Part shown: piece by piece, positions 1-15,897 of the stretch
How the letters are laid out: the number at the start of each line of letters is the position of its first letter
Position numbering within the stretch: the first letter of the stretch is position 1
Assembly: GCA_044347425.1 (NCBI GenBank)
Contig: JBIKUS010000003.1
Span: 1 to 41,927, forward strand
Direction: 5' to 3'
DNA length: 41,927 nt
Source: Vampirovibrionales bacterium
GTDB taxonomy: Bacteria; Cyanobacteriota; Vampirovibrionia; Vampirovibrionales; JAJTHC01
Notes under the pieces: generated by a model
The model's database searches: none
What the model was told of the DNA's origin: nothing
The model's input: only the letters and a program-made list of their open reading frames with translations
Program-made: the position numbers and the translations under genes

Positions 1-328
1 GCTTGCCACCATGCTTTAGCGCAGGGGCCAGCAACATCGTTAGGGGGGCAGTGGTGGGCATAGTTCAGCTTGGCAAGCAAAACATCTTTAACATCGGTAT
101 AGCTACCATCTAAAGTGGCGGAATACAGGGCTTGGTGTACGGCACTTGTGGTGGCTTTAAGCTTGGCTTTATTGCTTGCCCACGTCATGTGGGTAATCAC
201 ACCAGGCAGGGTAAGCGCAGCAATTACCCCTAAAATGCTTAGGGAAATCAGCAATTCGCTTAGGGTAAAGCCCTTTTTTCTGCTAGGCTTTTTGAGGCTT
301 GAGGCTTGAGGCTTGAGGCTTGAGGCAT
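1..328 (-). pseudogene. Prepilin-type N-terminal cleavage/methylation (type IV pilin-like) gene, frameshifted in a 7-bp repeat; runs off the left edge
   Basis: Manual translation of the minus strand gives ...RKKGFTLSELLISLSILGVIAALTLPGV..., a class III signal peptide (G|FTLxE), open to position 1. The ATG at 328 follows an AAAGGA RBS (344-339) but is out of frame with this domain; the in-frame stretch up to the stop at 434-432 contains no ATG. Confidence 0.8.
292..326 (-). repeat. Heptanucleotide tandem repeat (GCCTCAA)x5
   Basis: TTGAGGC occurs 5 times without mismatch on the + strand, directly after the pilin ATG on the - strand. Confidence 0.97.
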
Positions 329-391
329 TGCTTGGCGATCCTTTCGTGGGGTTGGGTGTGTTGGTGTTATCGTACCATGGCCTCGCCAGCT

Positions 392-649
392 TTAGGGTAA
401 CTTGCTGAGTGTTACAACAAGTAACGTAGCCCTACCCTTAGGCGTTTTAGCCCCTGTAGACAAGCCCCCATGCAACCGACACCGCCCATTGCCCATGGCA
501 GGTTGCAAACACGCCCCACCCGCCCTTGTGAAGGCTCCACAACGCTTGGTGTGGCCTAGGTTGTAGGGTTGGTTGCCATTGCGTAGTACCCACACCTTGC
601 CGTTGTTTTTCTCACTGGGCATGGGGTCATTGTTAAAAAATGGTTTCAT
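392..649 (-). CDS. HGGxSTG domain protein, C-terminus possibly truncated
   Basis: RCGAFTRAGGACLQPAMGNGRCRLHGGLSTGAKTPKGR matches the HGGxSTG family motif. Confidence 0.85.
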   Translation of the reverse strand: MKPFFNNDPMPSEKNNGKVWVLRNGNQPYNLGHTKRCGAFTRAGGACLQPAMGNGRCRLHGGLSTGAKTPKGRATLLVVTLSKLP

Positions 650-661
650 ACCCCACCCCCC

Positions 662-1195
662 CTAGGCTTTTTGAGCTACCAGCACTTGGCTACCCGCTTC
701 GGCCTGTACGTGTTGGTGTACTACCTGCACGGTTTGCTTGCCTCCATTGCGTAGCTTGTGGAAGGCTTCGGCTTGCTTGGCAAAGGTACAAGCCAGTTGG
801 TTAAATTGCTTTAGGTAGGCGGTAGACTGGCTAAGGTACTCTGCCCTAGAGGCTTTGGCAGAGGCTTCTATGGTGTGGTGATGCACGGCAAGCATCTGTT
901 GGGCGAGCATGGCCTCAGTGGGGTTTTGTGGAGCGAGGGCTTGCACAAAGGCCGTAGCGTTGTTGATGGTTAGCCCGATGTTTTGAGCATCCTTACCACT
1001 GGTGAGTATACCCTGATAGCCAGCCAGTAACAGAGCTAGCCCTATATCTTGCGTGCCAAAGCTATCGCAAAGGGTGTGTAGAGGTTGGGTGTCGTTTTGG
1101 GCGTGCCTTAACTGGCACTCTTTGGTGTCTAGGTTGACGGTAAACAGGTTAAGCTCTTGCAGGGGTGGGGCTTCGGTAGGCAGGGCTTGGGGCAT
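662..1195 (-). CDS. Hypothetical island protein adjacent to HGGxSTG
   Basis: 177-aa ORF with PQNPTEAMLAQQMLAVH and GKQTVQVVHQHV segments that resemble island proteins found upstream of HGGxSTG genes. Confidence 0.7.
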   Translation of the reverse strand: MPQALPTEAPPLQELNLFTVNLDTKECQLRHAQNDTQPLHTLCDSFGTQDIGLALLLAGYQGILTSGKDAQNIGLTINNATAFVQALAPQNPTEAMLAQQMLAVHHHTIEASAKASRAEYLSQSTAYLKQFNQLACTFAKQAEAFHKLRNGGKQTVQVVHQHVQAEAGSQVLVAQKA

Positions 1196-1412
1196 GGTGT
1201 AGTGTCTCTCATGAAGGGGTGGGAGGCACTACCAGTTTAGCATAGGGTGGGCTTTGTCTCGTTAAAAGCGATAGCAAAGCGTTCTCTGTATTGAGTATTA
1301 AAGACATTTTGTAGGCTTTGACTTAGCAAACTTGATGATTTAACCCTATGGCGGGGTATTGTCATGGTGTATAGTTTTACTTTGTTCTCTCTAATGCTTA
1401 TGTAATGGAGCC

Positions 1413-4400
1413 ATGGTCATGCCTCAAGATAAACCCCTTGTACTTGCTTTTGATATGGGTAAAGCCTCGTTGGGGCTGTGTGTGCGAGATGATGACGAGC
1501 TACTTGCGCTTGAATCGGTGGATATCCCTGTTGAACACGCCATGACGACCGAGTTGCGAAGCCGAACCCACATGACCCGCACCCGAGACTGCCACACCCA
1601 GCGAGAAAACTGGTTTATGGAGGCACTTTGGCTGAAAGCTGGCCTCCCCGATTTTAGGGAGGATGCTGTGTGGGACGAGCTAGTAAAGCCCACCCTCGCC
1701 CCCAGCTATACGGGTGATGTTAAACTCCGTACACGTGAGTTCCCCAAGGGTGGGGACGAGACCAACTTTAATAGCCCGCTGTTGCGTATTGCCCTGCTTG
1801 AAGGCGAGGACTTAGCCCCTTGGCAGGTGTGGAAGGCACTGTGGTCGGCAATTCAAAAGCGAGGCTTCCACTATTATGATTGGAAGAGCGTCCCCGCTGA
1901 CTTTGAGAGTGTGGATGCTAACATTGGTGAACTGCTGGCTAAAAAACAAGAACTCACCGACAAGCTGGACGAGATAGAAACTGCTAAAAAGCTCACCAAA
2001 AACAAAGACGAAAAAGCCGAACTTACCGAAGAGATAAAAGCCCTCAAGGAGGAGGTGAAGGCTTGGAACGCTGAATACGGCGAAGTCATTGAGCAGATGA
2101 CTCATTACAAAAAAAACCTGCTTGAGCGTGTTTACCTTGATGAATACACCTACCCCTGCTACATGGAAGCAGCTCGGCTTGGACTTTGGGAGGTGAATCC
2201 CATTACCAACCGTGGGCAAATCTTCAGCTTTAAACAAGGCAACCAGCCTCAAGCCTTGGCTCAAAACGAGCGGTTGGTGCCACGAGCCTACCGCATAAAA
2301 GAACTCAAATCCCTGTGGAGCCAAGCGCAACGCCTGCTCACTCAGCTACAAGCCTTTGAAGTTGACTATCTGCTTTTTGGCGAGGCCAAGGCTCCCTATG
2401 CTACAGTGTGGCAACGCACGCTCAAGGCACACAGGGGTAAAGGTCCCAACTACCTCTTTCGTCGGCGGGGCGATGCCCGCCTACCCATTGCCGTAGACGA
2501 ACCCAACCGCTTTATCGACACGCAAGGCGTGCTGGGGCAAAAGGTGCCTCGGTTTGACAACCGTATTATTGCCAAGTGCCAACTGATGCCTACCCGTAAC
2601 GTGTGCAACGCTAAAGACCCGCTGGCCAGCAAAGTTGGCTTAATGCTACAGCTTAAAAACACACGTTTTATTGATAGCGACGGCGTTGTTAGGCAAGCTG
2701 GCCTTACCCCCGCCGAGTTTAACACCCTGATTGAGGCGGTGCATCCGCTACTCAACGACAAGGGCGAGGTGACGTATACCAAGTTTGTCAAAGCATTAGA
2801 AGATACACTTAAAGCCCACGGCACGGGACTAAGCCACCTGCAACACCCCGCTTTAAAAGAGAACATTAAAGTCAACATCAGCGGACGTTCTAGGTTTTGT
2901 CGGCCTGCGCTCAAGGTGATTCATTACACCCTCACCCACGGCGATGCCTTCCCCAACATTGACCCGTTGACGGTGACATACGAGGGCAAGGCAGTGGTCA
3001 ATGCCAGCCATCCGCAAGGGGTGACGGCTGAGGAAGTGGTAAAAACCCTCAAACGCCTAGGCACAAGCTGGGAGAGTTTTTCCGTAGGCGACGACCGAGA
3101 CGATACCTTTGCCTTGGGGCAAGCGTTACAAACCAACGAGGCTCGTCGCCATGCGGTGATGAAACTACTGGGGCGGAGTAACAACCCCATTGTGCGAAAC
3201 CGTATGCTCATTTTTTACAACAAACTCGTTAAGTTAGAGGCCAACCTCACCGCCAAGGGCTATAACGTGCGCCAAGATGCCAAGGTGATTATTGAGTTTA
3301 TCCGTGGGGCAGACAGCGGTTTTGACGGTAAGAAAAAAGGCGACGAGTGGACGAAACACATCAACGCCAACGAAAAAGAAAACGAAGAACTCCTCAAAGA
3401 ACTGAGAGAAAACGGCCTGCCTGATGCCTACAGGTTACGCCTAAAGTTGTTTAAGCAACAACGTGGCCAGTGCGCTTACACCCTTGACACAGAGAAGGCC
3501 AAGCTCTCTATTACAGACTTGGGTAGTTACGAGATTGACCATATTTATCCCTTCTCCTTGGCCTTTTCTTCTGATGCGGTATGGAACAAGGTACTGGTGC
3601 GCCGAGAAGCCAACCAAGACAAAGCCAAGCAAACCCCCTACCAATGGCTACACGGTCAAAAAGGCGAAGCCGTATGGCAACAATTTATAGCCAAGGTAGA
3701 AGCCATGTACGCCAAAGACGACAAATCAACGACTAAAAAGAAAGCCCTGCTCACTTCGCCCAACCCCGAAAAGCAGATGGAGAAATATACGGGCTTGGCC
3801 GAAACCGCTACCATGGCACGGCTAGCGCAACAGGTGCTGGGATTGCACTTTGCTTGGCCTCTGCAGGTAGAAGGGCAAGACCGCCGTATTTTTGTGAGCG
3901 ATGGGGCTTGGACGAGCCGTATACGTAGCCGTTATGACCTTGGCCGTTTACTGTTGGATAACGAGAAAGAATGTGCGTTAGATAACGCCATTGCCAAACA
4001 ACGAGAAAACTACCAACGCCGCCGAGAAGCCATCCGCTTTAACGACACGGCCACAGTACAAGCCATGGAGACGACGATAAAGGAACAGGCCGACATCCTT
4101 AAAAAGCTGCACAAAGACCGTACCAACAGTAAACACCATGCGCTAGATGCGTTTTGCATCAGCTTTAGCCAAGACGTTCGCCCCTCAAAAGATGAACGGG
4201 GTAGGCCAAAGTTAAAACCTAGTGGCGAACAAGAATGGACGTTGCTCAACGAGGACAGCTTCCTTACGTTTAAGCAGGCCTTACCCGCTTACATGGAGGC
4301 ATTGTTCCCCCAGCCGTATTGCCGTAATAAAAGTAAGCTAGCTTTAGAAGAAACGATTTATGGTTACAGAAAAGCCCTACGCTCTATGGTGGTACGTAAA

Positions 4401-5042
4401 CCTCTTTTTGACTTACTAAAGGATGCCGACGATAAAAAAATCAAGAACCTATCGCTTGTTGATAAAGCGATAGAGGAGGATTTAAAAGCCCATCACAAAA
4501 CAATAGCCACTAAAAAAGAATGGAATGAGTTTCTGGAAACTTACCCTCATCCGACAAGAGGTAATAGAGTTAAAGCGGTTAAAATTATCCCCATGGCTGA
4601 AGTTGACTTTATGGGCTACGGCACAGGTAACAGGTCACGCTTTGGCGAATTACAAGATATGGGTAATGGCCAAACCAAGGGGCAATATAAAAAAGCGGCT
4701 GCACACAATGGGCAGATTGTCTACCAAGACAAACAAGGCAAATGGAATGTATTTACAGTGCCTGCTTTTATGAGTGAGCTTGAGGCAAGAGCCACCTTAG
4801 CATCTAGGGGAATTAAAACCTTATTTTCAAATGGAGACCTTCTTTACCCATCCTTAACTGTAAGAGTTAAGCAGATGTTTTTAGGCCCCAAAGGTATTAT
4901 GATGAAAGCTGGTTTGTATACTTGGAAAACCATGAATCACTTAGGTTATTGTATCATTGAGGATGCTAATGGGTTTAGCCCTTCAGGTATTGCTATTGCA
5001 AAGCTCATAAGTGTAGGACTTGAAATTGTAAAAACACCATGA
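1413..5042 (+). CDS. cas9: Type II CRISPR RNA-guided endonuclease Cas9 (divergent, II-C-like)
   Basis: RuvC-I LAFDMGKASLG; Arg-rich bridge helix; RuvC-II VIIEFIR; HNH CAYT...YEIDHIYP...NKVLV...ANQDK; RuvC-III HHALDA; adjacent cas1, cas2 and array. Confidence 0.93.
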   Translation: MVMPQDKPLVLAFDMGKASLGLCVRDDDELLALESVDIPVEHAMTTELRSRTHMTRTRDCHTQRENWFMEALWLKAGLPDFREDAVWDELVKPTLAPSYTGDVKLRTREFPKGGDETNFNSPLLRIALLEGEDLAPWQVWKALWSAIQKRGFHYYDWKSVPADFESVDANIGELLAKKQELTDKLDEIETAKKLTKNKDEKAELTEEIKALKEEVKAWNAEYGEVIEQMTHYKKNLLERVYLDEYTYPCYMEAARLGLWEVNPITNRGQIFSFKQGNQPQALAQNERLVPRAYRIKELKSLWSQAQRLLTQLQAFEVDYLLFGEAKAPYATVWQRTLKAHRGKGPNYLFRRRGDARLPIAVDEPNRFIDTQGVLGQKVPRFDNRIIAKCQLMPTRNVCNAKDPLASKVGLMLQLKNTRFIDSDGVVRQAGLTPAEFNTLIEAVHPLLNDKGEVTYTKFVKALEDTLKAHGTGLSHLQHPALKENIKVNISGRSRFCRPALKVIHYTLTHGDAFPNIDPLTVTYEGKAVVNASHPQGVTAEEVVKTLKRLGTSWESFSVGDDRDDTFALGQALQTNEARRHAVMKLLGRSNNPIVRNRMLIFYNKLVKLEANLTAKGYNVRQDAKVIIEFIRGADSGFDGKKKGDEWTKHINANEKENEELLKELRENGLPDAYRLRLKLFKQQRGQCAYTLDTEKAKLSITDLGSYEIDHIYPFSLAFSSDAVWNKVLVRREANQDKAKQTPYQWLHGQKGEAVWQQFIAKVEAMYAKDDKSTTKKKALLTSPNPEKQMEKYTGLAETATMARLAQQVLGLHFAWPLQVEGQDRRIFVSDGAWTSRIRSRYDLGRLLLDNEKECALDNAIAKQRENYQRRREAIRFNDTATVQAMETTIKEQADILKKLHKDRTNSKHHALDAFCISFSQDVRPSKDERGRPKLKPSGEQEWTLLNEDSFLTFKQALPAYMEALFPQPYCRNKSKLALEETIYGYRKALRSMVVRKPLFDLLKDADDKKIKNLSLVDKAIEEDLKAHHKTIATKKEWNEFLETYPHPTRGNRVKAVKIIPMAEVDFMGYGTGNRSRFGELQDMGNGQTKGQYKKAAAHNGQIVYQDKQGKWNVFTVPAFMSELEARATLASRGIKTLFSNGDLLYPSLTVRVKQMFLGPKGIMMKAGLYTWKTMNHLGYCIIEDANGFSPSGIAIAKLISVGLEIVKTP

Positions 5043-6049
5043 CCTACCATGTTATCTCACTACTTAACGAAGGAGCGTATCTCTCGGCGGATGCGGGGTT
5101 TTTAGTGTGCCAGTACAAAAACGGCACCACGCACCATATGCCCCTCGGCGACGTGCGGGCGATTATCGCCGCTCACCCAGCCATTAGCTACAGCAACACC
5201 TGCCTTGCTCGCCTGCTAGCGCAAGACAGCGTGGTGCTACATTGCGACAGGCACTATAAACCCGTCGGCTGGACGGTGCCGCTGGACAGAGTGATACGAA
5301 GCACGGTGTTTGAAGGCCAACTGGCGGCCTCGCCTCACTTTAAAGCCCAGCTTTGGGATGCCCTTGTCATGGGTAAAATGCAGAACCAAGCCGATACCCT
5401 CACCCGCTTAGGCGTGGAGCATGGCCTGCATCAGCTCATCGCTCGGCCGTTAGCGTCTGAGGCGAATGTGGCTCGCTACTACTGGTCGCCGTATTTTAAG
5501 GCCATCGCCGCCGAATGGGGCAAGCGTGAGCGTAAGGGTGCCGCCAGTTTTGAGAACAAGGCACTCAATTATGGCTATGCCGTGGTGGCCACGTTGGTGC
5601 ATCGGGCGTTGTTGGTGCATGGGTTGTTACCCACGTTGGGCTTGCGCCACAAGCATCGTTACCGCAGTGCGCCCCTGGTGTACGACGCTATGGAGCCGTG
5701 CCGTGTGATTGTGGATTGGTTGTTGGCACAGTGGAAGGCGCAACCCAGCGTGGTCAAGCAACCGTGGGCAAGCTTGGGTGAGGAGGCCAGCGACGCTTTA
5801 TTTAGGGAGTGGGTGGCGTTTTTAATGCAGGGCTTGCGTGAGTGGCGGTTGGCTCCGCAGCGGGCGGGGCAGGCCGAAAAGCACACGCTGAAGTGGTTAG
5901 ATGCGCCCGACAAGCTGGCGAGAGGCTTGGCCAAGGCCTTTGAGCAAGGCGATGTGTCGACTGTTTGGCTCCCCTGTTTGACGGAAACGTATCACCACGC
6001 TGAGGGGCAGGGCTTAAGTGATGACGACGACGAGCCGATAGACGACTAA
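5039..6049 (+). CDS. cas1: CRISPR-associated integrase Cas1 (type II)
   Basis: EANVARYYW, NKALNYGYAVV, LGLRH and LVYDAMEP motifs; ATGA overlap with the cas9 stop. Confidence 0.95.
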   Translation: MTYHVISLLNEGAYLSADAGFLVCQYKNGTTHHMPLGDVRAIIAAHPAISYSNTCLARLLAQDSVVLHCDRHYKPVGWTVPLDRVIRSTVFEGQLAASPHFKAQLWDALVMGKMQNQADTLTRLGVEHGLHQLIARPLASEANVARYYWSPYFKAIAAEWGKRERKGAASFENKALNYGYAVVATLVHRALLVHGLLPTLGLRHKHRYRSAPLVYDAMEPCRVIVDWLLAQWKAQPSVVKQPWASLGEEASDALFREWVAFLMQGLREWRLAPQRAGQAEKHTLKWLDAPDKLARGLAKAFEQGDVSTVWLPCLTETYHHAEGQGLSDDDDEPIDD

Positions 6050-6104
6050 CCCTTGGCTACTTTGCCTCGGGTTATGTTGCGTAGGTTAAGGCCATTGTGG
6101 TTGT

Positions 6105-6455
6105 ATGAAAAGCAGGTTTAAAGTGGGTTGGTTGCTGTGCATGTTTGATTTGCCCACCGTTGAGCGTGAAGAGCAACGGGCAGCCAACACCTTTCGTAAG
6201 GGCTTACTAGAGATGGGCTTCTTTATGCTGCAAGAGAGCGTCTACGTGCGAAATTGTGTGAGTATGGAACGCCACAAGAAGTACATGGCGGACGTTGAGC
6301 GGATAGCTCCTGATAGAGGGCTGGTCAACTTGTTCTTTATCACCGAGAGGCAGTGGCTAGACAGTAAAACGCTGTTCCTTCAGGCCATCAAGCCCAAAAG
6401 CAAACGAAAAATAGATGCTGGCGAGGCAATTCAACAGCAGATTTCGTTTTGGTAA
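6105..6455 (+). CDS. cas2: CRISPR-associated protein Cas2
   Basis: WLLCMFDLPT...FRKGLLEMGFFMLQESVYVR is the type II Cas2 pattern. Confidence 0.95.
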   Translation: MKSRFKVGWLLCMFDLPTVEREEQRAANTFRKGLLEMGFFMLQESVYVRNCVSMERHKKYMADVERIAPDRGLVNLFFITERQWLDSKTLFLQAIKPKSKRKIDAGEAIQQQISFW

Positions 6456-6459
6456 TAAT

Positions 6460-6552
6460 ATAAAAGTGTCATTCGGGATGGTACGTGACAGGCAGAGGTA
6501 CTATCCGAGTGACAATCCGTTAAGATTAGTATCGCAGGATGATTTATGGTGA
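6460..6552 (-). ncRNA. Putative tracrRNA
   Basis: Anti-repeat at 6519-6550, with an 18-nt perfect reverse complement of the repeat at 6533-6550. On the minus strand it is followed by a long stem-loop (6467-6514) and a U-rich run, and a sigma70-like promoter lies just upstream. The strand is inferred. Confidence 0.7.
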
Positions 6553-6558
6553 GCCTTT

Positions 6559-6586
6559 ATTTTAGCAGTTTCTGTGGAAGAATCAA
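6559..6586 (-). promoter_or_regulatory. Putative tracrRNA promoter TTGATT-N16-TAAAAT with extended -10 TG
   Basis: The minus strand reads TTGATT CTTCCACAGAAACTGC TAAAAT, ending 8 nt before the anti-repeat. Confidence 0.6.
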
Positions 6587-6599
6587 GAGGGTATATCCT

Positions 6600-7386
6600 A
6601 GTCTACCATAAATCATCCTGCGGGAGTCTACCATAAATCATCCTGCGGTAGAATCAAAACCCGTATAACATCGCTTGGTTGGGTTATTCGAAGTCTACCA
6701 TAAATCATCCTGCGGTAGAATCAAAACGGGCATGAACACAACGCCGACGGCCACAGAAGTCTACCATAAATCATCCTGCGGTAGAATCAAAACGCCTTTT
6801 ACGGATGCCTTTGAGAAGACAGAGTCTACCATAAATCATCCTGCGGTAGAATCAAAACGACAAGCTTCAGCTCTAGGGCATTGTCGTAAGTCTACCATAA
6901 ATCATCCTGCGGTAGAATCAAAACAAAAGACCCAAATAACAAAGAGATGTTTAGAGTCTACCATAAATCATCCTGCGGTAGAATCAAAACTTGGGTGTAT
7001 CTTTTGTAAAGTCTAGCCTTAGTCTACCATAAATCATCCTGCGGTAGAATCAAAACGGGCTATTGGATATGGGCGGGATGCGCCAAAGTCTACCATAAAT
7101 CATCCTGCGGTAGAATCAAAACCAAAAGGAATAATACCAATAGTCATAAGGTAGTCTACCATAAATCATCCTGCGGTAGAATCAAAACGCCTATGCTGTG
7201 ACTCTGAAGGTCTTACGGAGTCTACCATAAATCATCCTGCGGTAGAATCAAAACCGCAGCTCCATCGTCCAGCTAAACACTTCAAGTCTACCATAAATCA
7301 TCCTGCGGTAGAATCAAAACAGATATTGAACGCCGTCTAGCGCAAACCCAAGTCTACCATAAATCATCCTGCGGTAGAATCAAAAC
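6600..7386 (-). CRISPR. CRISPR array: 12 identical 36-bp repeats (+ strand AGTCTACCATAAATCATCCTGCGGTAGAATCAAAAC), 11 spacers of 29-31 bp, plus a 24-bp partial repeat at 6600-6623
   Basis: Full repeats start at 6625, 6692, 6758, 6823, 6889, 6955, 7021, 7087, 7153, 7219, 7285 and 7351. Minus orientation is inferred from the GTTTT start and the terminal extended -10 (TGGTAGACT). Confidence 0.98.
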
Positions 7387-7522
7387 GGGAAAGGGTAGGG
7401 GGTGTTAATCTCACCATCCCCTTGGGCTGGAACCGATGTAGGGGCTTTCTTTTCACTGTCGCAGCTTGAAAAGTAATTTTGGTAAGCCGTGGTTAAAAGT
7501 TCTCTGGTGTTGGCGTATGACC

Positions 7523-9055
7523 CTAAGCACCCACCCTCTTAACGTCAGGGTGGAGCCTAAGGCAGTCTCGGCGTACCTTGCCGTCAATGGTAAAGGCTTC
7601 GGTGGTGGGTATCAGCCAACCATGCTCTATCAGGTTAGCCACGGTAGGCTCTGCAACGTGCTTTTTGCGTAGCGCATTCGGACCACGGTTTTCAATAACC
7701 GCCATAGACACCACCATGTGAGGCCATTTGTTGCGTAGCCAATCAAGCAGGGATAAAGCGTTTTTTTGCTCCTCGCTTAGCTCATCGGCAGTGTAAAGGC
7801 GTAAGGCTTCGGCAAGGTAATACCTAGCCAAGATGATGCCTGCCTTAATGGCTTTTTCTGCTAAAGCCTTCTCGTCGGGTGTGTTGATATAGGTCAATAC
7901 GCCCGCTATGCGTACCACTTGTTCGGCTAGCTTGTTGGCCATGCCTTTAACCACTGTAAGCCTACCTTCGGGTTTAAGTTGCACTTCAATCTCGTTATAA
8001 AAGGCTATCAGGCTTTTCTTGGCTTCGGGGGTTAGGGCAAGGTTGTGTGGTTCTAGTTCACGCTCGCCAAAGGGGCTTTGAGGCCACGGTCTGTTAAGCA
8101 AGTGAAGCAGGCGTTTGTTGTAGGCTTCAAGGTCAGTATTTGCCGAGGCGGGGGCTTGCTGATACAAACGGTAGCCCATGGTAGAGCTGGGGTAAGCCAT
8201 CAAAAAACGAGCCAAAATGCCCTGCCCCTTAAATAAGGAGTTGTGTACAAAGCCTTGGCTTAATTCGGGTTGTAGCATAAGGTGTACGGCCAGCCTTTTG
8301 TGCTTTAGCCTAAGCTCGCCCCCTTCAATGCGTTTATGCACCAGCTGCGAGCCGTTCCACAGGCTACTTAGCCCTGTAATGGTGCGGGTTTGGTTGTCTT
8401 TGTTCATGGCAAAGCCACCCAAAAACGTACCGCCTTCGTCTGAGAAGATACTCATAGCGGGTTGCCCTTTAGCCAAGGCTCTCACCAAGGCGGGGAAGGT
8501 AGGCTCAGGGCAGAGTATGGCGGGTTCTATGGGTTCCTCTGGTGGTGTCCCTACCGCCTCTATCGCTTTTTGAATACTCTCCTTTGTAGGGTTCTTGTCG
8601 CCTTTTTTAGGCTTTGTGGCCAACTTTCTAGCCGATTCATAGGCTTCTTTCTCGTTCTTGTAACGCAGTACCTCTTTTGTATAGGATAAGTAATTGTTGC
8701 TTTCTCTCTCTTTTATCGCCTGCAAAGCCAGTTTATCGCAAGCGGTTTTTCGCTCACCTGATGCGCCTATACTCAACATAAACAAGCTACAAGGGTAAAA
8801 CTGGCCACTTACCCCTTGGGCGTTGACATAGGCTTGTGCCACGCAAGACGACGCACCTAATACCGATTGACCCGCTAAGGCAAGGGGGGCTTGTGTCTTT
8901 TGTTGAATAGCAACAACGGCTTGTTTCAACACTTTGGGCAACGCATCTAGTGGGAAGGCAAAACCCTCTTGTAGTGGTGGTGCTATCGGCCTTGGGGGCT
9001 GGGGTTCGGTTGTAGGGGCTTGCTCAAGTAAGGCTTGTATTTCTTGCTCACTCAT
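7523..9055 (-). CDS. DUF3987/YfjI family protein (P-loop, replication/helicase-like)
   Basis: FPLDALP, SIGASGERKT P-loop-like motif, FSDEGGTF, LMLQP and GILARFL segments. Confidence 0.85.
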   Translation of the reverse strand: MSEQEIQALLEQAPTTEPQPPRPIAPPLQEGFAFPLDALPKVLKQAVVAIQQKTQAPLALAGQSVLGASSCVAQAYVNAQGVSGQFYPCSLFMLSIGASGERKTACDKLALQAIKERESNNYLSYTKEVLRYKNEKEAYESARKLATKPKKGDKNPTKESIQKAIEAVGTPPEEPIEPAILCPEPTFPALVRALAKGQPAMSIFSDEGGTFLGGFAMNKDNQTRTITGLSSLWNGSQLVHKRIEGGELRLKHKRLAVHLMLQPELSQGFVHNSLFKGQGILARFLMAYPSSTMGYRLYQQAPASANTDLEAYNKRLLHLLNRPWPQSPFGERELEPHNLALTPEAKKSLIAFYNEIEVQLKPEGRLTVVKGMANKLAEQVVRIAGVLTYINTPDEKALAEKAIKAGIILARYYLAEALRLYTADELSEEQKNALSLLDWLRNKWPHMVVSMAVIENRGPNALRKKHVAEPTVANLIEHGWLIPTTEAFTIDGKVRRDCLRLHPDVKRVGA

Positions 9056-9933
9056 AACTGGCCAGCCTCCCTAAGCATATCGTTAAAATCTTGGCCAGCT
9101 TTTGGCGGTAACAGGTAGGTGACGGCTCTACCCTCGTTAAGCCAGCGTTCCATAGCACCATCAGCCGCTTTTATGCCTGCTGGGTCATGGTCAACGGCCA
9201 ACACAATCTTGCTTATACTGGTGGGTAGCACAAGGCTTGTAAGCCCTGCTGTTGATAAGGCAGCCCAAGCAGGTACACCCAAGGCTTGCTGTACGCTCAA
9301 CGCTGTTTCTATACCTTCGGCAACGGCTAGTTGGGTTGTGGGGTGGCCTAACTGCACGCTTGCCCCTTCCAAGCCACCTAGGCTCTTTTTGTTGGGGTCT
9401 ATCGGTGCTTTGTGGCCATCAGGGGCTAAGTAAATGCGCTGTATGCCCTTGGGTGTACCTAACTGGTCTCTCACAAGGCCAACAAGTGCAGGGTAATACG
9501 CTTGCGTATCGCTATGTTTAAGGTTTGGGTGATACCTCAACACATCAGGGTAAGGAGGGTTAAGGTTACGCCCAAGCAAGTATTGCTCTGCAAGTGTACC
9601 CTCAATAGGTAACGATTGTTGCCATAGACTCAAGGCATAAGCTATTTTGTCGGGTGCTGTGTCCGCATTCGCAACTTTCGCAGGTTTCGCAATCGCAAAG
9701 GGCTTAGCCGAAAAACTTACTAGCCCTTGTGATGCCAAGGTTTGCATAATCTCGTTGAAACTTGCATTGCAAGCATGGCAGTAGAAAAGTAGCTTCTCTT
9801 GCTTCTCGGTAAGTGAAAAAGCCTGTTTGTACTGGCAGACTGGGCAAGTACCATAGTAGCCTTGGCCAGACTTTTTTAACTTCAATGCAGTGGCCAGCTC
9901 CCGAGAATCGGGAGCTTTGCTTGGTGTAGACAT
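9052..9933 (-). CDS. Zn-finger + Toprim primase-like protein (P4 alpha/DUF7146-like)
   Basis: CPVC...CHAC zinc finger, VAEGIETALS, AVDHDPAG and DFND toprim motifs. Confidence 0.88.
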   Translation of the reverse strand: MSTPSKAPDSRELATALKLKKSGQGYYGTCPVCQYKQAFSLTEKQEKLLFYCHACNASFNEIMQTLASQGLVSFSAKPFAIAKPAKVANADTAPDKIAYALSLWQQSLPIEGTLAEQYLLGRNLNPPYPDVLRYHPNLKHSDTQAYYPALVGLVRDQLGTPKGIQRIYLAPDGHKAPIDPNKKSLGGLEGASVQLGHPTTQLAVAEGIETALSVQQALGVPAWAALSTAGLTSLVLPTSISKIVLAVDHDPAGIKAADGAMERWLNEGRAVTYLLPPKAGQDFNDMLREAGQL

Positions 9934-9939
9934 GGCGAA

Positions 9940-10197
9940 CTATCCTTTAATGCTAGTGGTTTTGCGCTTAATACGAGCTTCGGCGGTAGAACTTACCTTG
10001 TCGCATCGTTTTAGCCAGTTGTTTAGGTCGTCAACATAGTAAAAAATACGGCCAGTATTGATAAACTTCGGACCCGTGCCGTTTGAACGCTTAATAGCCA
10101 GTGTTTTAACCGAAAGGCCAAGGTATTCGGCTGCATGTTTTGTATCCAGCCTACCGTCTGGGTATTGGGGAAAAGCCGAAGGTGGTAGCTCATTCAT
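9940..10197 (-). CDS. Excisionase/AlpA-like helix-turn-helix protein
   Basis: LDTKHAAEYLGLSVKTL...GPKF...IFYYVDDLNNWL. Confidence 0.85.
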   Translation of the reverse strand: MNELPPSAFPQYPDGRLDTKHAAEYLGLSVKTLAIKRSNGTGPKFINTGRIFYYVDDLNNWLKRCDKVSSTAEARIKRKTTSIKG

Positions 10198-10300
10198 TAA
10201 AGTGTGTAGCCTCCTTGCTAGGGGGGTAAAAATAATAACAATGTAACCCTATCAGGTCACACCATAAAACGCAAGGGGTACTCGTGAGAATGTAACGAGC

Positions 10301-11062
10301 TTACCAATAATTACCAAGGTAGCACTCGTTTTCATCTTGCAAACCAAGGTTTTTAAGCCTTATGTTAAGGGCTTGCATGGATACTCTACCCACCTTTGCA
10401 AGCTCCTCTTTAACATATCGCCATGCAGTAGCTTGTTTATGGGGTAGTGCATTCTTAGGCCAACGCTCTGAAATCTCTGCCAGCATAACCTGTTTAGGCA
10501 TGAGCAAAGCACCCGCAAAGTTATCTGCCTGCCACTCTGTCCAATAGGTATCATCCTTAGGGGTATCGGGGTTGTTTTCTCTCTTATCTCTACACAAAAT
10601 AGTATTTTTTTGGGGTGGCTTAAACAAGGTAAGCTGTTCGGGGTTTCGTACAGGTACAAGGTTACGGTGTAGCACATAATGGCCAAGCTCGTGCGCTAAG
10701 GTAAAATTATAACGCCCTTCGTTAATCTGCCGTTCGTTAAGCCCAAATATGGGTGCAGTTGGTAACTTGTCCCAATCACGTTTAGGGGGAGCGCACTGGG
10801 GCGGTATTGAGGGTGTCTCAACTAAGCTCTCATCTATCCACACAGCGTTATTTTCAAACTGCATCGCACCCAATAAACCTTGAATGCCAAAGTATTCTTC
10901 TAGGTTGTCTATGTTAAGGGTTAGCCCATAGTATTGCTCAATCATTCTTTCCACATCAATAGGTAGCCTAACCTTTGTAATTTCTTTTTGGGTAAAGCCT
11001 TCAACACAGTTAAGGGCTTCGTGGTCAATCTGCTGGCGATTAAGGGGCTTAGGTCTTTTCAT
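10301..11062 (-). CDS. ImmA/IrrE family metallopeptidase (anti-repressor)
   Basis: RYNFTLAHELGHY (HExxH) and EWQADNFAGALLMP. Confidence 0.92.
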   Translation of the reverse strand: MKRPKPLNRQQIDHEALNCVEGFTQKEITKVRLPIDVERMIEQYYGLTLNIDNLEEYFGIQGLLGAMQFENNAVWIDESLVETPSIPPQCAPPKRDWDKLPTAPIFGLNERQINEGRYNFTLAHELGHYVLHRNLVPVRNPEQLTLFKPPQKNTILCRDKRENNPDTPKDDTYWTEWQADNFAGALLMPKQVMLAEISERWPKNALPHKQATAWRYVKEELAKVGRVSMQALNIRLKNLGLQDENECYLGNYW

Positions 11063-11429
11063 CAGGGGGAGTTACCTCACTTTGTTTTAACAGGTTATAG
11101 GCGGCTCTAAAGTCTTTAGATGATGCGTGCTTAGCTGTCCTTAAAAAATCGGCCATTTCTTTAGGCTTGCTAAGAATAATCTCCTTTACATCCGTAGATA
11201 TTTTGCCTGATAGCGAGAGAAGCTGGTCAGGGTCAACCTTAAGTAGGCTTGCCATAGCTCGTGTGGTATCCTCAGAGGCGGTAACAGGTTCCCCACGCTC
11301 TAACTTTGAGACAAACGTAGGGCTTACACCTAACTGGCCAGCAAATTGCCGTAAACTCATGCCTGTAGCTTCTCGTAGACGCTTAAGGTTTTGCCCAAAA
11401 GACTCGTTAAGGTTAAGTGAAGGGTTCAT
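11049..11429 (-). CDS. XRE-family HTH repressor (ImmR-like); start uncertain (11429 or upstream)
   Basis: FGQNLKRLREATGMSLRQFAGQLGVSPTFVSKLERGE; overlaps the immA-like gene. Confidence 0.9.
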   Translation of the reverse strand: MNPSLNLNESFGQNLKRLREATGMSLRQFAGQLGVSPTFVSKLERGEPVTASEDTTRAMASLLKVDPDQLLSLSGKISTDVKEIILSKPKEMADFLRTAKHASSKDFRAAYNLLKQSEVTPPDEKT

Positions 11430-11521
11430 AGGGGGTAGCCTTTGTTTAGTGTGCATTGTATACTGTACAGACATTAAGAGAACTTTTCAACCCTTTATAT
11501 ACCAAAAGGAACAAACTCACC

Positions 11522-12817
11522 ATGCCACGCACCTACTCAAAACTCAACCGTAACGCCTTGCGTAAGTTGGATATAGGCGAAAAAATCTCTGAAAAAGGGA
11601 TTGAGTTTACAAGGCTACCTGATGGTGATGGTTGCTTTAGGGTCAACGTCATGGTTGACGGCCAGCGTATCCACCGCACGGTAGGCAAAGAATCCGAGGG
11701 GGTTACGCTTACCCAAGTTGAGCAATACGTTGAGAAGCTACGCACAGAGGCAAGGGAGGAACGGCTCAACCTGCCTAAAAGGCGCAAGCTACCCCTTAGC
11801 TTTACCAAGGCTGTTGGCGAATACCTTGTACGCTCTGAGCAAGAAGGGGGTAAAGACTTGGCCAAAAAAGCCGAACGCTTTAGGTTGCACCTTGTGCCGT
11901 TTTTTAGCACAAAGCCCCTTAGCCAACTTAACCCCTTTGAGATTGAACGCTACAAGAAAACACGCAAAGATGAGGGAGCATCCACGGCAACTATTAACAG
12001 AGAACTGGCTGTACTAAGTCACCTGCTAAGCAAAGCGGTTGAATGGGGTTGGCTTAACCAAAAGCCCTGCAAGGTAACACTCAACAAAGAGAACAACCGC
12101 AAGCTGGTGTACCTTACCACAGAGCAATGCCAAGCCTTGCTACAAGCCGCTAAGGCCGATAGCAACCCGCAAGTTTACCTGTTTTGCCTTATTGGCCTTG
12201 AAACTGGTATGCGCCTCTCTGAAATCCTGAGTATCACGCTTGAAAACATCCACGCCGAACAAGGCTTTCTCTATATCCCCAAGGCCAAGGCAGGGGCTAG
12301 GCCACAACCCTTAACGCATCGCTTGGCCAGTGTGCTTAGCCAATACGTTAAAGCCTCGCCTAGCAAGGTGGGCTGGCTCTTCCCTAGCATTGGCAACTTG
12401 CCCTCAACGGTGGGCTATACCACTTGCATGAGCCTACCCTTTAAGCGGGTGGTGCTAGCTGCTGGCCTTGACCCTAAGCAGGTAACGCCTCACACGTTGC
12501 GCCATACGGCTATATCGCACCTAGTGCAAAGCGGGGTTGACCTCCCTACCGTTAAAACCATATCAGGCCATAAAACCTTGGCTATGGTTGAGCGGTACAG
12601 TCATCAAAACGGTGGCCACATACAGCAAGCTATGGAACGCCTAGAGGCTCGTTATAACCAAGGGAGCAACACCATTACACAAGAATTACACAAACCGCAA
12701 AGCCAAAGTAAAACAAGCGGGCTAGAAGCCAGTAAACTCAAGGGTTTTTTAGGTAACAAAAACTACCCCCAAGGGAATTCGAATCCCTGCCGCCTCCGTG
12801 AAAGGGAGGTGTCCTAG
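11522..12817 (+). CDS. Tyrosine recombinase/integrase
   Basis: Catalytic motifs TGMRLSE (R), IPKAK (K), HTLRHT, SGHKT and ERYSH (Y). The ORF ends within the antisense of tRNA-Glu. Confidence 0.95.
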   Translation: MPRTYSKLNRNALRKLDIGEKISEKGIEFTRLPDGDGCFRVNVMVDGQRIHRTVGKESEGVTLTQVEQYVEKLRTEAREERLNLPKRRKLPLSFTKAVGEYLVRSEQEGGKDLAKKAERFRLHLVPFFSTKPLSQLNPFEIERYKKTRKDEGASTATINRELAVLSHLLSKAVEWGWLNQKPCKVTLNKENNRKLVYLTTEQCQALLQAAKADSNPQVYLFCLIGLETGMRLSEILSITLENIHAEQGFLYIPKAKAGARPQPLTHRLASVLSQYVKASPSKVGWLFPSIGNLPSTVGYTTCMSLPFKRVVLAAGLDPKQVTPHTLRHTAISHLVQSGVDLPTVKTISGHKTLAMVERYSHQNGGHIQQAMERLEARYNQGSNTITQELHKPQSQSKTSGLEASKLKGFLGNKNYPQGNSNPCRLREREVS

Positions 12818-12836
12818 GCCACTAGACGATGGGGGC
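12764..12836 (-). tRNA. tRNA-Glu(TTC)
   Basis: GCCCCCATCGTCTAGTGGCCTAGGACACCTCCCTTTCACGGAGGCGGCAGGGATTCGAATTCCCTTGGGGGTA folds as a cloverleaf with anticodon TTC. Confidence 0.97.
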
Positions 12837-12905
12837 ATGTGTTAGGTACCTTTTAAGAGTAACCCAAGCCACAAGCCAACGTCAACCCTTTGCCACGCAA
12901 ACAAC

Positions 12906-13445
12906 CTAGCCCGCCACTTGAGGCTGCTGCCCCTGCACCTTGGCGTAATAGCTGCCTAAAGCATTATCGTACAAGGGGCTGTTGTTGGCTAAGCCATCAT
13001 CACCAATATCCATGTGTAAAAAGTCGTTGCGGCCTACATAATTACCCAGTTTGCCACCCAATAACCCGCCTGCTGCAATACCTGCAATCGCTAAGGCTCC
13101 GCCAATTAAGGGGTTAACCTTAGTGATGTTTTTTATCGCCACTGTTGCACCCATTAACAATGGCTTAGACAATAACCCCAGCGCACCTAAACCTAAGCCG
13201 CCAGCCACCGCTCCTTTTAGCGAAAACTGGTTTTCTACCTCGCGGGCATAGGCGGTGGCACCTACCTCGCTCGTCATAGCTCCTAGGTTGGTGGGAGCTA
13301 ACTGCCCCGTTTCATGAAAGTACTGGCGTGCATTGGGGTCGGTGGGCATGCCTAGGCCAAAGGCACCTGGCATCATACCCATGCCACCCATACCGTAGGG
13401 CATACCGCCCATACCCATCATACCCATGCCTGGCATCATGCTCAT
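12906..13445 (-). CDS. Hypothetical Gly/Met-rich protein with glycine-zipper-like hydrophobic segments
   Basis: 179-aa ORF with an MGM-rich N-terminus, GAVAGGLGLGALG and GIAAGGLLGG segments; GGAGA RBS-like sequence upstream. Confidence 0.7.
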   Translation of the reverse strand: MSMMPGMGMMGMGGMPYGMGGMGMMPGAFGLGMPTDPNARQYFHETGQLAPTNLGAMTSEVGATAYAREVENQFSLKGAVAGGLGLGALGLLSKPLLMGATVAIKNITKVNPLIGGALAIAGIAAGGLLGGKLGNYVGRNDFLHMDIGDDGLANNSPLYDNALGSYYAKVQGQQPQVAG

Positions 13446-13578
13446 TCTGCCGTGTCTCCATCTCTCTGCGGATGTGTGTCAAACTCTCTGTGCGTGTGTT
13501 GCCCACAAGGGCTTAATGGTATTAACGTAACCATCACACTGTTTTGTGCTACAATCCCCCTTATTATTTTATAGTGTG

Positions 13579-14550: not shown

Positions 14551-14871
14551 GCCATTATGCAGAGGTTGCATCAGCCAACAACACCATCAACCCTAGGTAC
14601 TACAACCCGACAAAAAGCACTGAAACCATAGTGTTTAGTACTTTCGTTGTAAGCCAAAAAATAAAAGGGATAGTGGAACCATCCCTCTCTCTGCAATCAC
14701 ACGTTGTTGTCACTTGTATCAAGGTTTGATACAAGACAGATAATGGCCAGCACTGTTAACATGCTGGTTATTATTAGCTTAGGCTATGGCCACTTGTGCT
14801 GCCTAGCCTCAATTAGCCAAACTCCCACAAATGGCGTAACTGCCTCAAGTGCCGTAGCCCCTATAAAGCAA

Positions 14872-14899: not shown

Positions 14900-14923
14900 C
14901 TGAGCTAACCGATGGGCAAGGCT

Positions 14924-15886: not shown

Positions 15887-15897
15887 GTAGCCCTGTT

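What the first reader, a model, noticed from the sequence alone, without database searches (positions are those of the whole stretch)
392..12836. Complete Cas9 system carried as cargo by a small tRNA-integrated, ImmA/ImmR-controlled satellite-like element
Seen: cas9-cas1-cas2, tracr and array (+ strand genes) interrupt an otherwise uniformly minus-strand backbone (XRE, ImmA, xis-like, primase, DUF3987 ... 177-aa ORF, HGGxSTG) next to an intact integrase at tRNA-Glu, with no virion or conjugation genes. Known: satellites and IMEs carry defence cargo, and ImmA cleavage of ImmR induces ICEBs1-type elements. Inference: a ~12-kb inducible, self-replicating, helper-dependent element that spreads an adaptive type II system, possibly aimed at helper or competitor phages, in a probable Melainabacteria host.
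Basis: partly seen in the sequence, partly recalled or inferred. Interest (0 to 1): 0.85.

Follow-up and report, generated by a model that had tools for sequence, protein, structure and literature searches.

The report
Cas9 system inside small integrated element
A complete Cas9 immune system sits in the swappable defence-gene slot of a small self-replicating element integrated next to a tRNA gene in a lake bacterium related to Vampirovibrio, showing how a whole adaptive immune system may travel as cargo, although movement of the element itself was not shown.

Summary
Window 392-12837 carries, on the minus strand, an HGGxSTG protein, a 177-aa protein (p177), DUF3987 helicase, primase, an excisionase-like HTH protein, an M78/ImmA-like protease and an XRE repressor. 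A divergent tyrosine integrase runs into tRNA-Glu(TTC). cas9-cas1-cas2, a tracrRNA anti-repeat and a 12-repeat/11-spacer array interrupt this backbone on the plus strand.

The key test passed. A relative (G012) has the same backbone in the same order at tRNA-Glu. Its DUF3987-to-p177 interval holds a type III restriction-modification system plus an SNF2 helicase. G011 holds a type I R-M system there, and G007 a restriction endonuclease directly after DUF3987. In G020, a related serine-recombinase backbone, the interval is empty. So 392-1195 belongs to the backbone and the cas cassette fills a variable defence slot.

Not shown:
- No second att copy was found.
- No empty site or circular junction was found.
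- No spacer target was found.
- No packaging or conjugation gene was recognised.

"Satellite-like, helper-dependent, inducible" therefore remains inference. The closest analogue is a cargo-carrying tycheposon or defence island. crRNA and tracrRNA are probably minus-strand, not plus. The host family is Vampirovibrionaceae. Cas9 systems in tRNA-linked islands are already published, so this is a new variant of a known kind.

The parts
392..649 (-). HGGxSTG-domain protein (85 aa); terminal gene of the conserved backbone
   Evidence: NCBIfam NF041373 at 57.7 bits. It follows p177 in 8 related loci besides the window: L051-L058. L059 ends before that point.
662..1195 (-). p177, conserved backbone protein of unknown function
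   Evidence: No family hit. Homologues pair with HGG at the end of related elements. The family has 8,530 representative clusters at E<=0.001. The predicted fold is helical with pLDDT 61, and 0 BFVD matches at E<=0.001.
1196..1412 (.). Divergent intergenic region between p177 and cas9; left edge of the cargo slot
   Evidence: Sequence. The same divergent layout between cargo and p177 is seen in G012.
1413..5042 (+). cas9 (1209 aa)
   Evidence: NCBIfam Cas9d NF049971 at 613 bits against a cut-off of 375, and TIGR01865 at 197 bits. HNH_4 hit. D13, E628, H710 and H908/H909/D912 are present.
5039..6049 (+). cas1
   Evidence: PF01867. TIGR03639, type II Cas1, at 128.6 bits against a cut-off of 120. 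It is the only cas1 found in the genome.
6105..6455 (+). cas2
   Evidence: PF09827 and TIGR01573.
6450..6552 (-). Putative tracrRNA (anti-repeat 6519-6550, then a hairpin and a U-rich tail); strand inferred
   Evidence: The anti-repeat scores 21 over a 32-column local alignment with one gap. A promoter-like site lies at 6586->6559(-). The fold gives -17.3 kcal/mol with z -1.16, which is not significant. No RNA data.
6601..7387 (-). CRISPR array: truncated repeat at 6601-6625, then 12 repeats and 11 spacers; the transcribed strand is inferred
   Evidence: The repeat reads GTTTTG... on the minus strand, and the degenerate repeat is at the left, trailer, end.
7388..7522 (-). Putative leader, directly downstream of the DUF3987 stop; right edge of the cargo slot
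   Evidence: Position only. Inference.
7523..9055 (-). DUF3987 helicase-like replication protein
   Evidence: PF13148 at 294 bits. PHROG 2373 'DNA helicase'. 45% identical to the G012 protein and 43% to the G007 protein.
9052..9933 (-). DNA primase (CHC2 Zn ribbon, DUF7146, Toprim)
   Evidence: PHROG 510, E 7.7e-39.
9940..10197 (-). Excisionase/AlpA-like HTH_17 protein
   Evidence: PF12728. PHROG 66 'excisionase and transcriptional regulator'.
10301..11062 (-). ImmA/IrrE-like M78 metalloprotease
   Evidence: PF06114. HELGH motif. PADLOC capP and RmrA hits.
11049..11474 (-). XRE-family repressor candidate, overlapping the protease gene by 14 nt
   Evidence: HTH_31 and HTH_3. PHROG transcriptional regulators and repressors.
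11456..12817 (+). Tyrosine integrase (likely start 11522); its 3' end is encoded antisense to the tRNA
   Evidence: PF00589. PHROG 1. Catalytic R, HxxR, H and Y are conserved.
12763..12837 (-). tRNA-Glu(TTC), the integration target
   Evidence: ARAGORN and Rfam at 58.6 bits. Related elements or their remnants lie at tRNA-Glu in 7 other fetched loci.

Best explanation
Window 392-12837 is one integrated copy of a modular, self-replicating integrative element. The family is common in Vampirovibrionales and targets tRNA-Glu(TTC).

The conserved modules are:
- integration: a tyrosine integrase reading into the tRNA, plus an AlpA/Xis-like protein;
- regulation: XRE plus an M78 protease;
- replication: a primase plus a DUF3987 helicase;
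- a terminal p177-HGGxSTG pair of unknown role.

Between DUF3987 and p177 lies a cargo slot. It is filled in the opposite orientation by different defence systems in different genomes. Here it holds a complete type II system (cas9-cas1-cas2, tracrRNA, 11 spacers), which is the only cas1-bearing system found in this genome.

Shown: the gene content, the conserved backbone, the variable slot, the lower G+C of both backbone and cassette, and intact catalytic motifs.

Inferred: the element excises through Int and Xis when the protease removes the XRE repressor. It then replicates as a circle and reaches new cells by a route it does not encode, such as a borrowed capsid, vesicles or transformation, carrying both the immune machinery and its memory. 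crRNA and tracrRNA are probably transcribed on the backbone strand, so read-through from the replication operon could raise guide RNA levels on induction.
For: Backbone conservation:
- G012/L051 has int(-) | XRE, ImmA, xis, primase, DUF3987 (+) ... p177, HGG (+), with tRNA-Glu overlapping the int 3' end as in the window.
- G007/L059 has XRE through DUF3987 in the same order.

Slot contents, opposite strand to the backbone in G012, G011 and G007:
- G012: type III Res (PDLC03647, E 5.7e-162), Mod, and a DrmD-like SNF2 helicase.
- G011: HsdM-RhuM-HsdS-AAA_13-HsdR.
- G007: an 841-aa RE_endonuc protein directly after DUF3987.
- G003: an N6_Mtase/Eco57I methylase.
- G020, a related serine-recombinase/primpol-DUF3987 backbone: empty, with a 126-aa ORF then p177 on one strand.

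Cassette and backbone are separable:
- 0 of 80 Cas9-relative loci in species-representative genomes have DUF3987, primase, p177 or HGG within 10 kb.
- In Vampirovibrionales, related cassettes sit beside other recombinases and tRNAs. G029 has tRNA-Phe, int, array, cas2, cas1, cas9. L071 has tRNA-Phe, int fragments, cas9 and onward, then int. G001 has cas9-cas1-cas2-array-AbiE-primase-AAA_25-p177-HGG-tRNA-Phe. G002 has the cas locus next to a serine recombinase.

Other support:
- G+C is 49.2% for the element (cas part 49.6%, backbone 48.4%) against 54.0% for the rest of the contig, where 6-kb windows range from 51.9 to 56.6%.
- Catalytic motifs are intact in Int, M78 and Cas9.
- This is the only cas1 in the 97%-complete assembly.
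- In another lake sample, variant contigs still bridge p177|cas9 and array|DUF3987 (X12 records 9 and 13).
Against: - No second copy of the tRNA 3' part or any other att-like repeat was found in the window, in the whole assembly, or downstream of HGG in six related loci.
- The contig ends 391 nt beyond HGG.
- No empty tRNA-Glu site could be found. There is no same-genus genome, and the metagenome scan found only relatives at 27% identity.
- The backbone is single-copy in this genome.
- Truncated remnants of the same family at tRNA-Glu are common in relatives (G003, G011, G018), so such elements do decay in place.
- The comparators are only about 28-65% identical, and only one of them (G012) is complete.
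- The read-through idea and the RNA strands rest on sequence features alone. The tracrRNA fold is not better than shuffles.
Confidence: 0.6

Rival explanations
1. It is an immobilised defence island. An element of this family integrated at tRNA-Glu long ago and lost its distal att site. The locus now serves as a chromosomal hotspot where defence cassettes, here CRISPR-Cas, are swapped in by recombination. The Cas9 system is then effectively a resident host system and no longer travels with the backbone.
For: - No att repeat was found.
- Decayed remnants of the family sit at tRNA-Glu in G003, G011, G018 and others. In G011, Gabija-like genes replace the integration and regulation module.
- This is the only cas1 in the genome, as expected for a host's own system.
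- The locus is found in 24 lake-water runs.
Against: - All eight backbone genes are full length, with catalytic motifs intact. The remnants in relatives have truncated DUF3987 and lack int.
- The G+C of the backbone is still well below the host flank.
Confidence: 0.22
2. It is a true phage satellite of the PICI or P4 kind. The element is induced by a helper phage, replicates, and is packaged in the helper's capsids. p177 and/or the HGGxSTG protein redirect packaging or interfere with the helper.
For: - Three of the 5 PICI core components are present: int, a regulator and AlpA-like protein, and primase-replicase (definition read in passages of PMC10085698).
- The size, 12.4 kb, fits.
- The primase and DUF3987 pair occurs in phage-sized (about 40 kb) IMG/VR contigs at about 35% identity.
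- The HGG domain weakly hits PHROG 6177.
Against: - No terS, capsid-morphogenesis, psu, sid or delta-like protein was recognised.
- p177 has no structural match to viral proteins: 0 of at least 500 BFVD matches at E<=0.001, from a low-confidence model.
- None of the 26 IMG/VR loci holding a DUF3987 relative carries p177 or HGG.
- Rousset et al. 2022 report that P4 and P2 hotspots lack large systems such as CRISPR-Cas because of capsid size (passage in PMC9122126).
Confidence: 0.15
3. It is a chance juxtaposition. A chromosomal CRISPR-Cas locus and two unrelated gene groups (int through DUF3987, and p177-HGG) merely lie side by side.
For: Most relatives of this Cas9 are not next to such genes: 0 of 80 loci.
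Against: - p177-HGG follows the DUF3987-type replicase in G012, G009, G015, G020, G003 and G011.
- The interval between them varies from 0 to about 8.7 kb and holds defence genes.
Confidence: 0.03

Closest known systems
Cargo-carrying tycheposons of Prochlorococcus (Hackl et al., bioRxiv 10.1101/2020.12.28.424599; I read section 4 and passages)
   Same: - A site-specific tyrosine (or large serine) recombinase at a tRNA gene.
- Small integration and replication modules (primase, helicase, xis, regulator).
- Several kb of dedicated cargo.
- No capsid or conjugation genes.
- Degenerate remnants accumulating next to the tRNA.
   Different: - The cargo here is defence (CRISPR-Cas and R-M), not nutrient uptake. 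The words 'CRISPR' and 'restriction' do not occur in that text.
- No flanking partial-tRNA repeat was found here.
- Integrase clade membership and shared hallmark profiles were not tested; the supplementary tables were not available.
- The host is a non-photosynthetic sister lineage of Cyanobacteria.
P4-like and P2-like hotspots of antiviral systems (Rousset et al. 2022, PMC9122126; passages read)
   Same: A conserved mobile-element backbone with one defined interval where different defence systems replace each other.
   Different: - Those hotspots hold short systems. [quoted passage not shown] Here the slot holds about 6 kb of CRISPR-Cas or 8-9 kb of R-M.
- No P4 capsid-hijack genes were found here.
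Type II-B CRISPR-Cas in tRNA-linked, integrase-bearing genomic islands of Vibrio natriegens and Salinivibrio (McDonald et al. 2019, PMC6360697; passages read). Also a Campylobacter ICE carrying CRISPR-Cas9 (10.1101/2021.06.01.446523; listing and start of abstract only).
   Same: A complete Cas9 system inside an integrase-bearing island at a tRNA gene, sometimes alongside R-M.
   Different: - Those are 30-kb islands or a 70-kb conjugative element without a defined replicative backbone and slot.
- The subtype differs: II-B with cas4, or the Campylobacter type.
- Here the unit is 12.4 kb with its own primase and helicase.
ICEBs1 ImmR/ImmA switch
   Same: An XRE-type repressor gene immediately followed by an M78 (HEXXH) protease gene next to int and xis.
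   Different: As I recall, the ICEBs1 genes immR-immA-int form one operon divergent from xis. Here XRE-M78 head the xis-replication operon and int is divergent. Cleavage is untested.
Subtype II-D / former II-C2 CRISPR-Cas (Makarova et al. 2025, PMC12669027; Aliaga Goltsman et al. 2022, PMC9755519; passages read)
   Same: - Cas9 passes NCBIfam's Cas9d model.
- Relatives include a Micrarchaeaceae archaeon locus.
- An anti-repeat for a tracrRNA is present.
   Different: - There is no cas4 in the locus or the genome.
- Cas9 is 1209 aa, above the roughly 600-1050 aa reported.
- By phmmer the nearest solved structures carry only the generic Cas9 label. I recall the top entries as II-C-type Nme Cas9, matching only over residues 622-1075. 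I could not tell whether any compact Cas9d structure is among the 31 matches.

Membership tests
Type II CRISPR-Cas | Cas9 with RuvC and HNH nuclease motifs | tested here: met
   TIGR01865 and HNH_4 hits. D13, E628, H710 and H908/H909/D912 are present.
Type II CRISPR-Cas | cas1-cas2 adaptation genes, a CRISPR array and a tracrRNA anti-repeat | tested here: met
   tracrRNA expression was not tested.
Subtype II-D (2025 classification) | Cas9 groups with Cas9d | tested here: met
   NF049971 at 613 bits against a cut-off of 375. This is an HMM assignment only; no tree was built.
Subtype II-D (2025 classification) | Adaptation module of cas1, cas2 and cas4 | tested here: not met
   There is no cas4 ORF in 1413-7522. 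PF01930 found nothing in the whole assembly. The definition is from a passage of PMC12669027.
PICI (five core components, de Sousa et al. 2023) | Integrase | tested here: met
PICI (five core components, de Sousa et al. 2023) | Regulation module (alpA, merR or stl homologue) | tested here: met
   XRE, M78 and an HTH_17/AlpA-like protein.
PICI (five core components, de Sousa et al. 2023) | Primase-replicase module | tested here: met
   Primase and DUF3987.
PICI (five core components, de Sousa et al. 2023) | Capsid-morphogenesis gene | tested here: not met
   No such hit in Pfam, NCBIfam or PHROGs. p177 and HGG are of unknown function and could be analogues.
PICI (five core components, de Sousa et al. 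2023) | Small terminase subunit | tested here: not met
   No terS hit. The p177 fold search gave no significant viral match.
Tycheposon | Site-specific recombinase integrating at a tRNA, plus a replication module and cargo, without capsid or conjugation genes | tested here: met
Tycheposon | Flanking full and partial tRNA attachment repeats | tested here: not met
   No partial tRNA-Glu copy was found in the window or the assembly. The contig ends 391 nt past HGG.
Tycheposon | Integrase within the tycheposon clade and shared hallmark profiles | not tested
   The reference sequences and profiles are in supplements not available here.
ICEBs1-type ImmR/ImmA control | Adjacent XRE repressor and HEXXH M78 protease | tested here: met
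ICEBs1-type ImmR/ImmA control | Protease cleaves the repressor to induce excision | not testable with these tools
   Needs biochemistry or genetics.
ICE / conjugatively mobilised IME | Relaxase, oriT or type IV secretion genes | tested here: not met
   None found. The primase's TraI_TIGR hit is 57.9 bits against a cut-off of 929.85 and covers only its DUF7146 part.

The most novel reading that the evidence does not exclude
This may be the first recognised member of an undescribed family of small replicative integrative elements in Vampirovibrionia. The family is marked by a p177-HGGxSTG end module and has a plug-in defence slot. In this reading the element moves an entire adaptive Cas9 system between cells, spacer memory included, and wires guide-RNA transcription to its own induction: the array leader abuts the end of the replication operon on the same strand. 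Immunity would then be boosted exactly when the element is activated, for instance by an infecting phage.
Probability: 0.15. Interest if true: 0.75.

Novelty: new variant of a known kind. Interest (0 to 1): 0.48.

Why it matters
Defence systems are known to ride on mobile elements, and Cas9 loci in tRNA-linked islands have been reported. The well-studied small elements with defined hotspots (P4 and P2) are said to exclude CRISPR-Cas for reasons of size.

Here half of a 12.4-kb replicative element is a complete adaptive system, in a slot that holds restriction-modification systems in sister elements. That gives a concrete, comparable backbone for asking how whole CRISPR-Cas cassettes are exchanged.

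It also documents a mobile-element family in a little-studied, partly predatory lineage (Vampirovibrionia) from lake water. The locus additionally provides a cas4-less, 1209-aa Cas9 that NCBIfam assigns to Cas9d, with its probable tracrRNA.

Tried and rejected
Attachment sites. I searched the window for the tRNA 3' part with up to 3 mismatches and searched the whole assembly with 101 nt. I also ran k-mer and local-alignment comparisons of the tRNA region with the far end in the window and in six related loci. The best scores were within the range of shuffles. No att repeat was found.

Empty site. A DNA search of 40 relatives with the right flank found only conserved gene pieces, because no genome of the same genus is held. 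Flank-protein searches in 5 g4 genomes were uninformative: the '441-aa flank' is a UmuC-like gene that is 97% identical in G013 and probably itself mobile. The single metagenome scan, with the phosphoesterase flank protein, returned only 2 loci at 27% identity.

Reads. Twenty-four lake-water runs hold window 1-10000. I laid four of them (X1, X5, X12, X18; all assembled contigs) on 1-14500. They gave no joint linking the two element ends. The array bin 6777-7260 had no cover. Higher summed depth over p177/HGG and DUF3987 than over cas9 in three runs cannot be interpreted, by the tool's own caveats.

Spacers. The whole array gave no match against 50,697 phage records and 72,556 plasmids at E<=1. 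The own genome gave only the array itself, the truncated repeat and the anti-repeat. In 49 genomes of the order there were only 18-28-nt matches at E>=0.016, which I take as chance. One leader-proximal spacer core gave 0 exact matches in IMG/VR. I tried only 1 of the 11 spacers there.

p177 function. No Pfam, NCBIfam, PHROG or PADLOC hit. The ESM Atlas returned unnamed clusters only. The AlphaFold model has pLDDT 61.2. The BFVD Foldseek search gave 0 hits at E<=0.001. The search for homologous proteins returned 7 'hypothetical protein' entries.

Viral contigs. The DUF3987 single-protein scan found nothing. The alignment scan found 26 loci, with primase next to DUF3987 in 10, and none with p177 or HGG.

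tracrRNA fold. The z-score of -1.16 is not significant. Rfam found nothing in 1-14000 except the tRNA.

Literature. 'HGGxSTG' is in 0 papers of the searched library. I found no paper describing CRISPR-Cas in a phage satellite among the listings or the passages read.

Full report
WHAT IS THERE

The window is a whole 41,927-bp contig of a 2.19-Mb, 97%-complete assembly. Reading from the right, the region holds the following.

- tRNA-Glu(TTC) lies at 12763-12837(-).
- A tyrosine integrase lies at 11456-12817(+), with the likely ATG at 11522. Its last 55 nt are encoded antisense to the tRNA. Its R, HxxR, H and Y residues are conserved.
- A minus-strand run follows: XRE (11049-11474), an overlapping M78 protease with HELGH (10301-11062), an HTH_17/excisionase-like protein (9940-10197), a Zn-ribbon/Toprim primase (9052-9933) and a DUF3987 helicase-like protein (7523-9055).
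- After that come a CRISPR array (12 identical repeats, 11 spacers of 30-32 nt, and a truncated repeat at 6601-6625), an anti-repeat at 6519-6550, and cas2, cas1 and cas9 on the plus strand (1413-6455).
- Two further minus-strand genes close the region: a 177-aa ORF (p177, 662-1195) with no family hit, and an 85-aa HGGxSTG-domain protein (392-649).
- A pilin-like gene then runs off the contig end.

Nothing in 392-12837 matches a capsid, terminase, tail, relaxase or secretion family.

IS THE CAS LOCUS INSIDE ONE ELEMENT?

It does.

In G012 (same family, another genus) tblastn finds int(-), then XRE, ImmA, xis, primase and DUF3987 (+), then p177 and HGG (+) about 8 kb further on. tRNA-Glu overlaps the int 3' end exactly as here. 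G007 has XRE through DUF3987 in the same order on a short contig.

The p177-HGG pair ends related elements in G003, G009, G011, G015 and G020 (all beside tRNA-Glu) and in G001 and G002.

A second backbone type uses a large serine recombinase and a primase-polymerase/DUF3987 fusion but keeps p177-HGG.

THE CARGO SLOT

The interval between the DUF3987 gene and p177 differs from genome to genome.

| Genome | Content of the interval |
|---|---|
| G020 | Empty: one 126-aa ORF, all on one strand |
| G009, G015 | One opposite-strand gene |
| G012 | Type III R-M (Res, Mod) plus a DrmD-like SNF2 helicase |
| G011 | Type I R-M with RhuM and an AAA_13 ATPase |
| G003 | An N6-methylase |
| G007 | A restriction endonuclease directly after DUF3987, where the contig ends |

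In G012, G011 and G007 the cargo is on the strand opposite to the backbone. It is convergent with DUF3987 and, where seen, divergent from p177. The cas operon in the window has the same geometry.

Both the cas part (49.6% G+C) and the backbone (48.4%) lie below every 6-kb window of the rest of the contig (51.9-56.6%).

THE CASSETTE IS SEPARABLE FROM THE BACKBONE

With a 9-sequence Cas9 alignment I fetched 80 loci from species-representative genomes. Of these, 71 have cas1 and 66 have cas2. None has DUF3987, primase, p177 or HGG within 10 kb.

Twenty of the 80 have a tRNA within 5 kb. Seven have a recombinase detectable with my five queries, and three have both.

Within Vampirovibrionales the link between cassette and recombinase recurs in different forms:
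- G029: tRNA-Phe, int, array, cas2, cas1, cas9, IS.
- L071: tRNA-Phe, integrase fragments, cas9-cas1-cas2, then another int.
- G001: cas9-cas1-cas2-array, an AbiE pair, primase, AAA_25 helicase, p177, HGG, tRNA-Phe.
- G002: the cas locus abuts a serine recombinase that heads an island holding a Type ISP R-M enzyme, primpol-DUF3987 and p177-HGG.

The window's Cas9 is closer to G029's (another family) than to the Cas9s of its own family: best-segment identities are 43% against 33-35%. This fits horizontal exchange of the cassette.

This cas1 is the only one in the assembly, and no cas4 was found.

WHAT KIND OF CRISPR SYSTEM

NCBIfam's Cas9d model scores 613 bits against a cut-off of 375. Catalytic residues are intact.

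The 2025 classification describes II-D loci as sharing cas1, cas2 and cas4 (passage). cas4 is missing here. The protein, at 1209 aa, is larger than the roughly 600-1050 aa reported for Cas9d and Cas9c2 (passage).

By phmmer, the solved structures that match are all labelled simply as Cas9. I recall the top entries as the II-C Nme type, and they match only over residues 622-1075.

I therefore call it a type II system that an HMM assigns to Cas9d, and do not file it as a full II-D member.

The repeat reads GTTTTG... on the minus strand, and the truncated repeat is at the left end. A TG-extended promoter-like site (6586->6559, minus) ends about 7 nt before the anti-repeat, which is followed by a hairpin and a U-rich stretch next to the cas2 stop.

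So crRNA and tracrRNA are most likely minus-strand, the same direction as the backbone operon, with the leader directly after the DUF3987 stop. This is inference. The fold is not significant and I have no RNA data.

WHAT WAS NOT SHOWN

- I found no second att copy anywhere.
- I could not test for an empty site: no same-genus genome is held, and the one metagenome scan gave only distant relatives.
- Contigs from four of the 24 lake-water runs that hold the locus showed no excision joint. They did show that a variant strain keeps the p177|cas9 and array|DUF3987 junctions.
- No spacer target was found.
- p177 belongs to a very large unnamed family: 8,530 representative clusters at E<=0.001. Within this class it was found in 23 of 251 genomes, all of them in two Vampirovibrionales families. 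Its function is unknown.

MECHANISM AND RIVALS

The best-supported reading is a cargo-carrying, self-replicating integrative element at tRNA-Glu whose defence slot here holds a complete Cas9 system. I give about 0.7 to the narrower statement that the cassette is cargo of one element unit, and 0.6 to the full explanation including the inferred steps.

That it is currently mobile, is induced through the XRE/M78 pair, and depends on an outside vehicle is plausible but unproven.

The main rival (0.22) is an immobilised island. Remnants of the family at tRNA-Glu are common in relatives, and no att site is visible. Against it, every backbone gene here is intact.

A strict phage-satellite reading (0.15) has 3 of the 5 PICI core components, and a replication module that is phage-like. 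It has no packaging or hijack gene.

COMPARISON AND NOVELTY

The closest functional analogue is the cargo-carrying tycheposon. The closest analogue for the hotspot idea is the P4/P2 hotspot. That paper notes such hotspots lack CRISPR-Cas.

Cas9 systems in tRNA-linked integrase islands are already described in Vibrio and Salinivibrio, and on a Campylobacter ICE.

What is new is the combination: a defined 12.4-kb replicative backbone family in Vampirovibrionia with a p177-HGGxSTG end module, a single exchangeable defence slot, and a whole adaptive type II system in that slot. I rate it a new variant of a known kind, with moderate interest.

Noticed in passing
window 3-350 (-): A type IV pilin-like gene (KKGFTLSELLISL... 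N-terminus) runs off the contig end. Its reading frame has no ATG, GTG or TTG upstream of the pilin motif. The nearest ATG (328) is out of frame, across a tract of four exact GCTTGAG heptads (297-324). This could be phase variation by repeat slippage, a non-canonical start or an assembly error. It is not found next to HGG in any related element, so it is probably host flank.
   Followed up: partly
window 14568-14650: A stretch of about 80 nt has copies at 83-90% identity on four other contigs of the same genome (C134, C72, C21, C184). It may be a small dispersed repeat.
   Followed up: no
window 14924-15220 (-): An HU-type DNA-binding protein gene (PF00216). Two paralogous copies elsewhere in the genome are 75-76% identical at DNA level, and copies occur in most of the genomes searched, 39 of 41.
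   Followed up: partly
L053 (G011:C28) 12688-16632: At tRNA-Glu the integration and regulation module is replaced by a Gabija-like pair: an OLD-family ATPase-TOPRIM protein of 569 aa and a UvrD-like helicase of 422 aa. They lie next to a truncated DUF3987 gene and a type I R-M system. The result is a defence island built on an element remnant.
   Followed up: partly
L056 (G002:C1) 5349-19347: An island headed by a large serine recombinase carries a Bro-N protein, a 1615-aa Type ISP restriction-modification enzyme, a primpol-DUF3987 fusion and an inverted p177-HGG pair. It lies directly beside a cas9-cas1-cas2 locus.
   Followed up: partly
L051 (G012:C6) 17556-19270: A UmuC-like Y-family polymerase gene and a small upstream ORF directly follow HGG. 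The polymerase is 97% identical in G013 in a different arrangement, which suggests it is mobile too.
   Followed up: no
L055 (G001:C129) 3753-4921: An AbiEii-type nucleotidyltransferase toxin gene, with a small upstream ORF, sits between the CRISPR array and the replication genes of a p177-HGG element ending at tRNA-Phe.
   Followed up: no
L071 7439-16397; L060 (G029:C3) 3863-12205: Related cas9-cas1-cas2 cassettes lie immediately downstream of tRNA-Phe with integrase genes or integrase fragments. This is a second tRNA-linked home for this cassette family in Vampirovibrionales.
   Followed up: partly
window 1-10000: The stretch is held by 24 listed public lake-water metagenome runs released 2020-2024, 15 of them with at least half of the sampled words. 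Contigs from three laid runs show single-base variants in HGG, p177 and DUF3987.
   Followed up: partly
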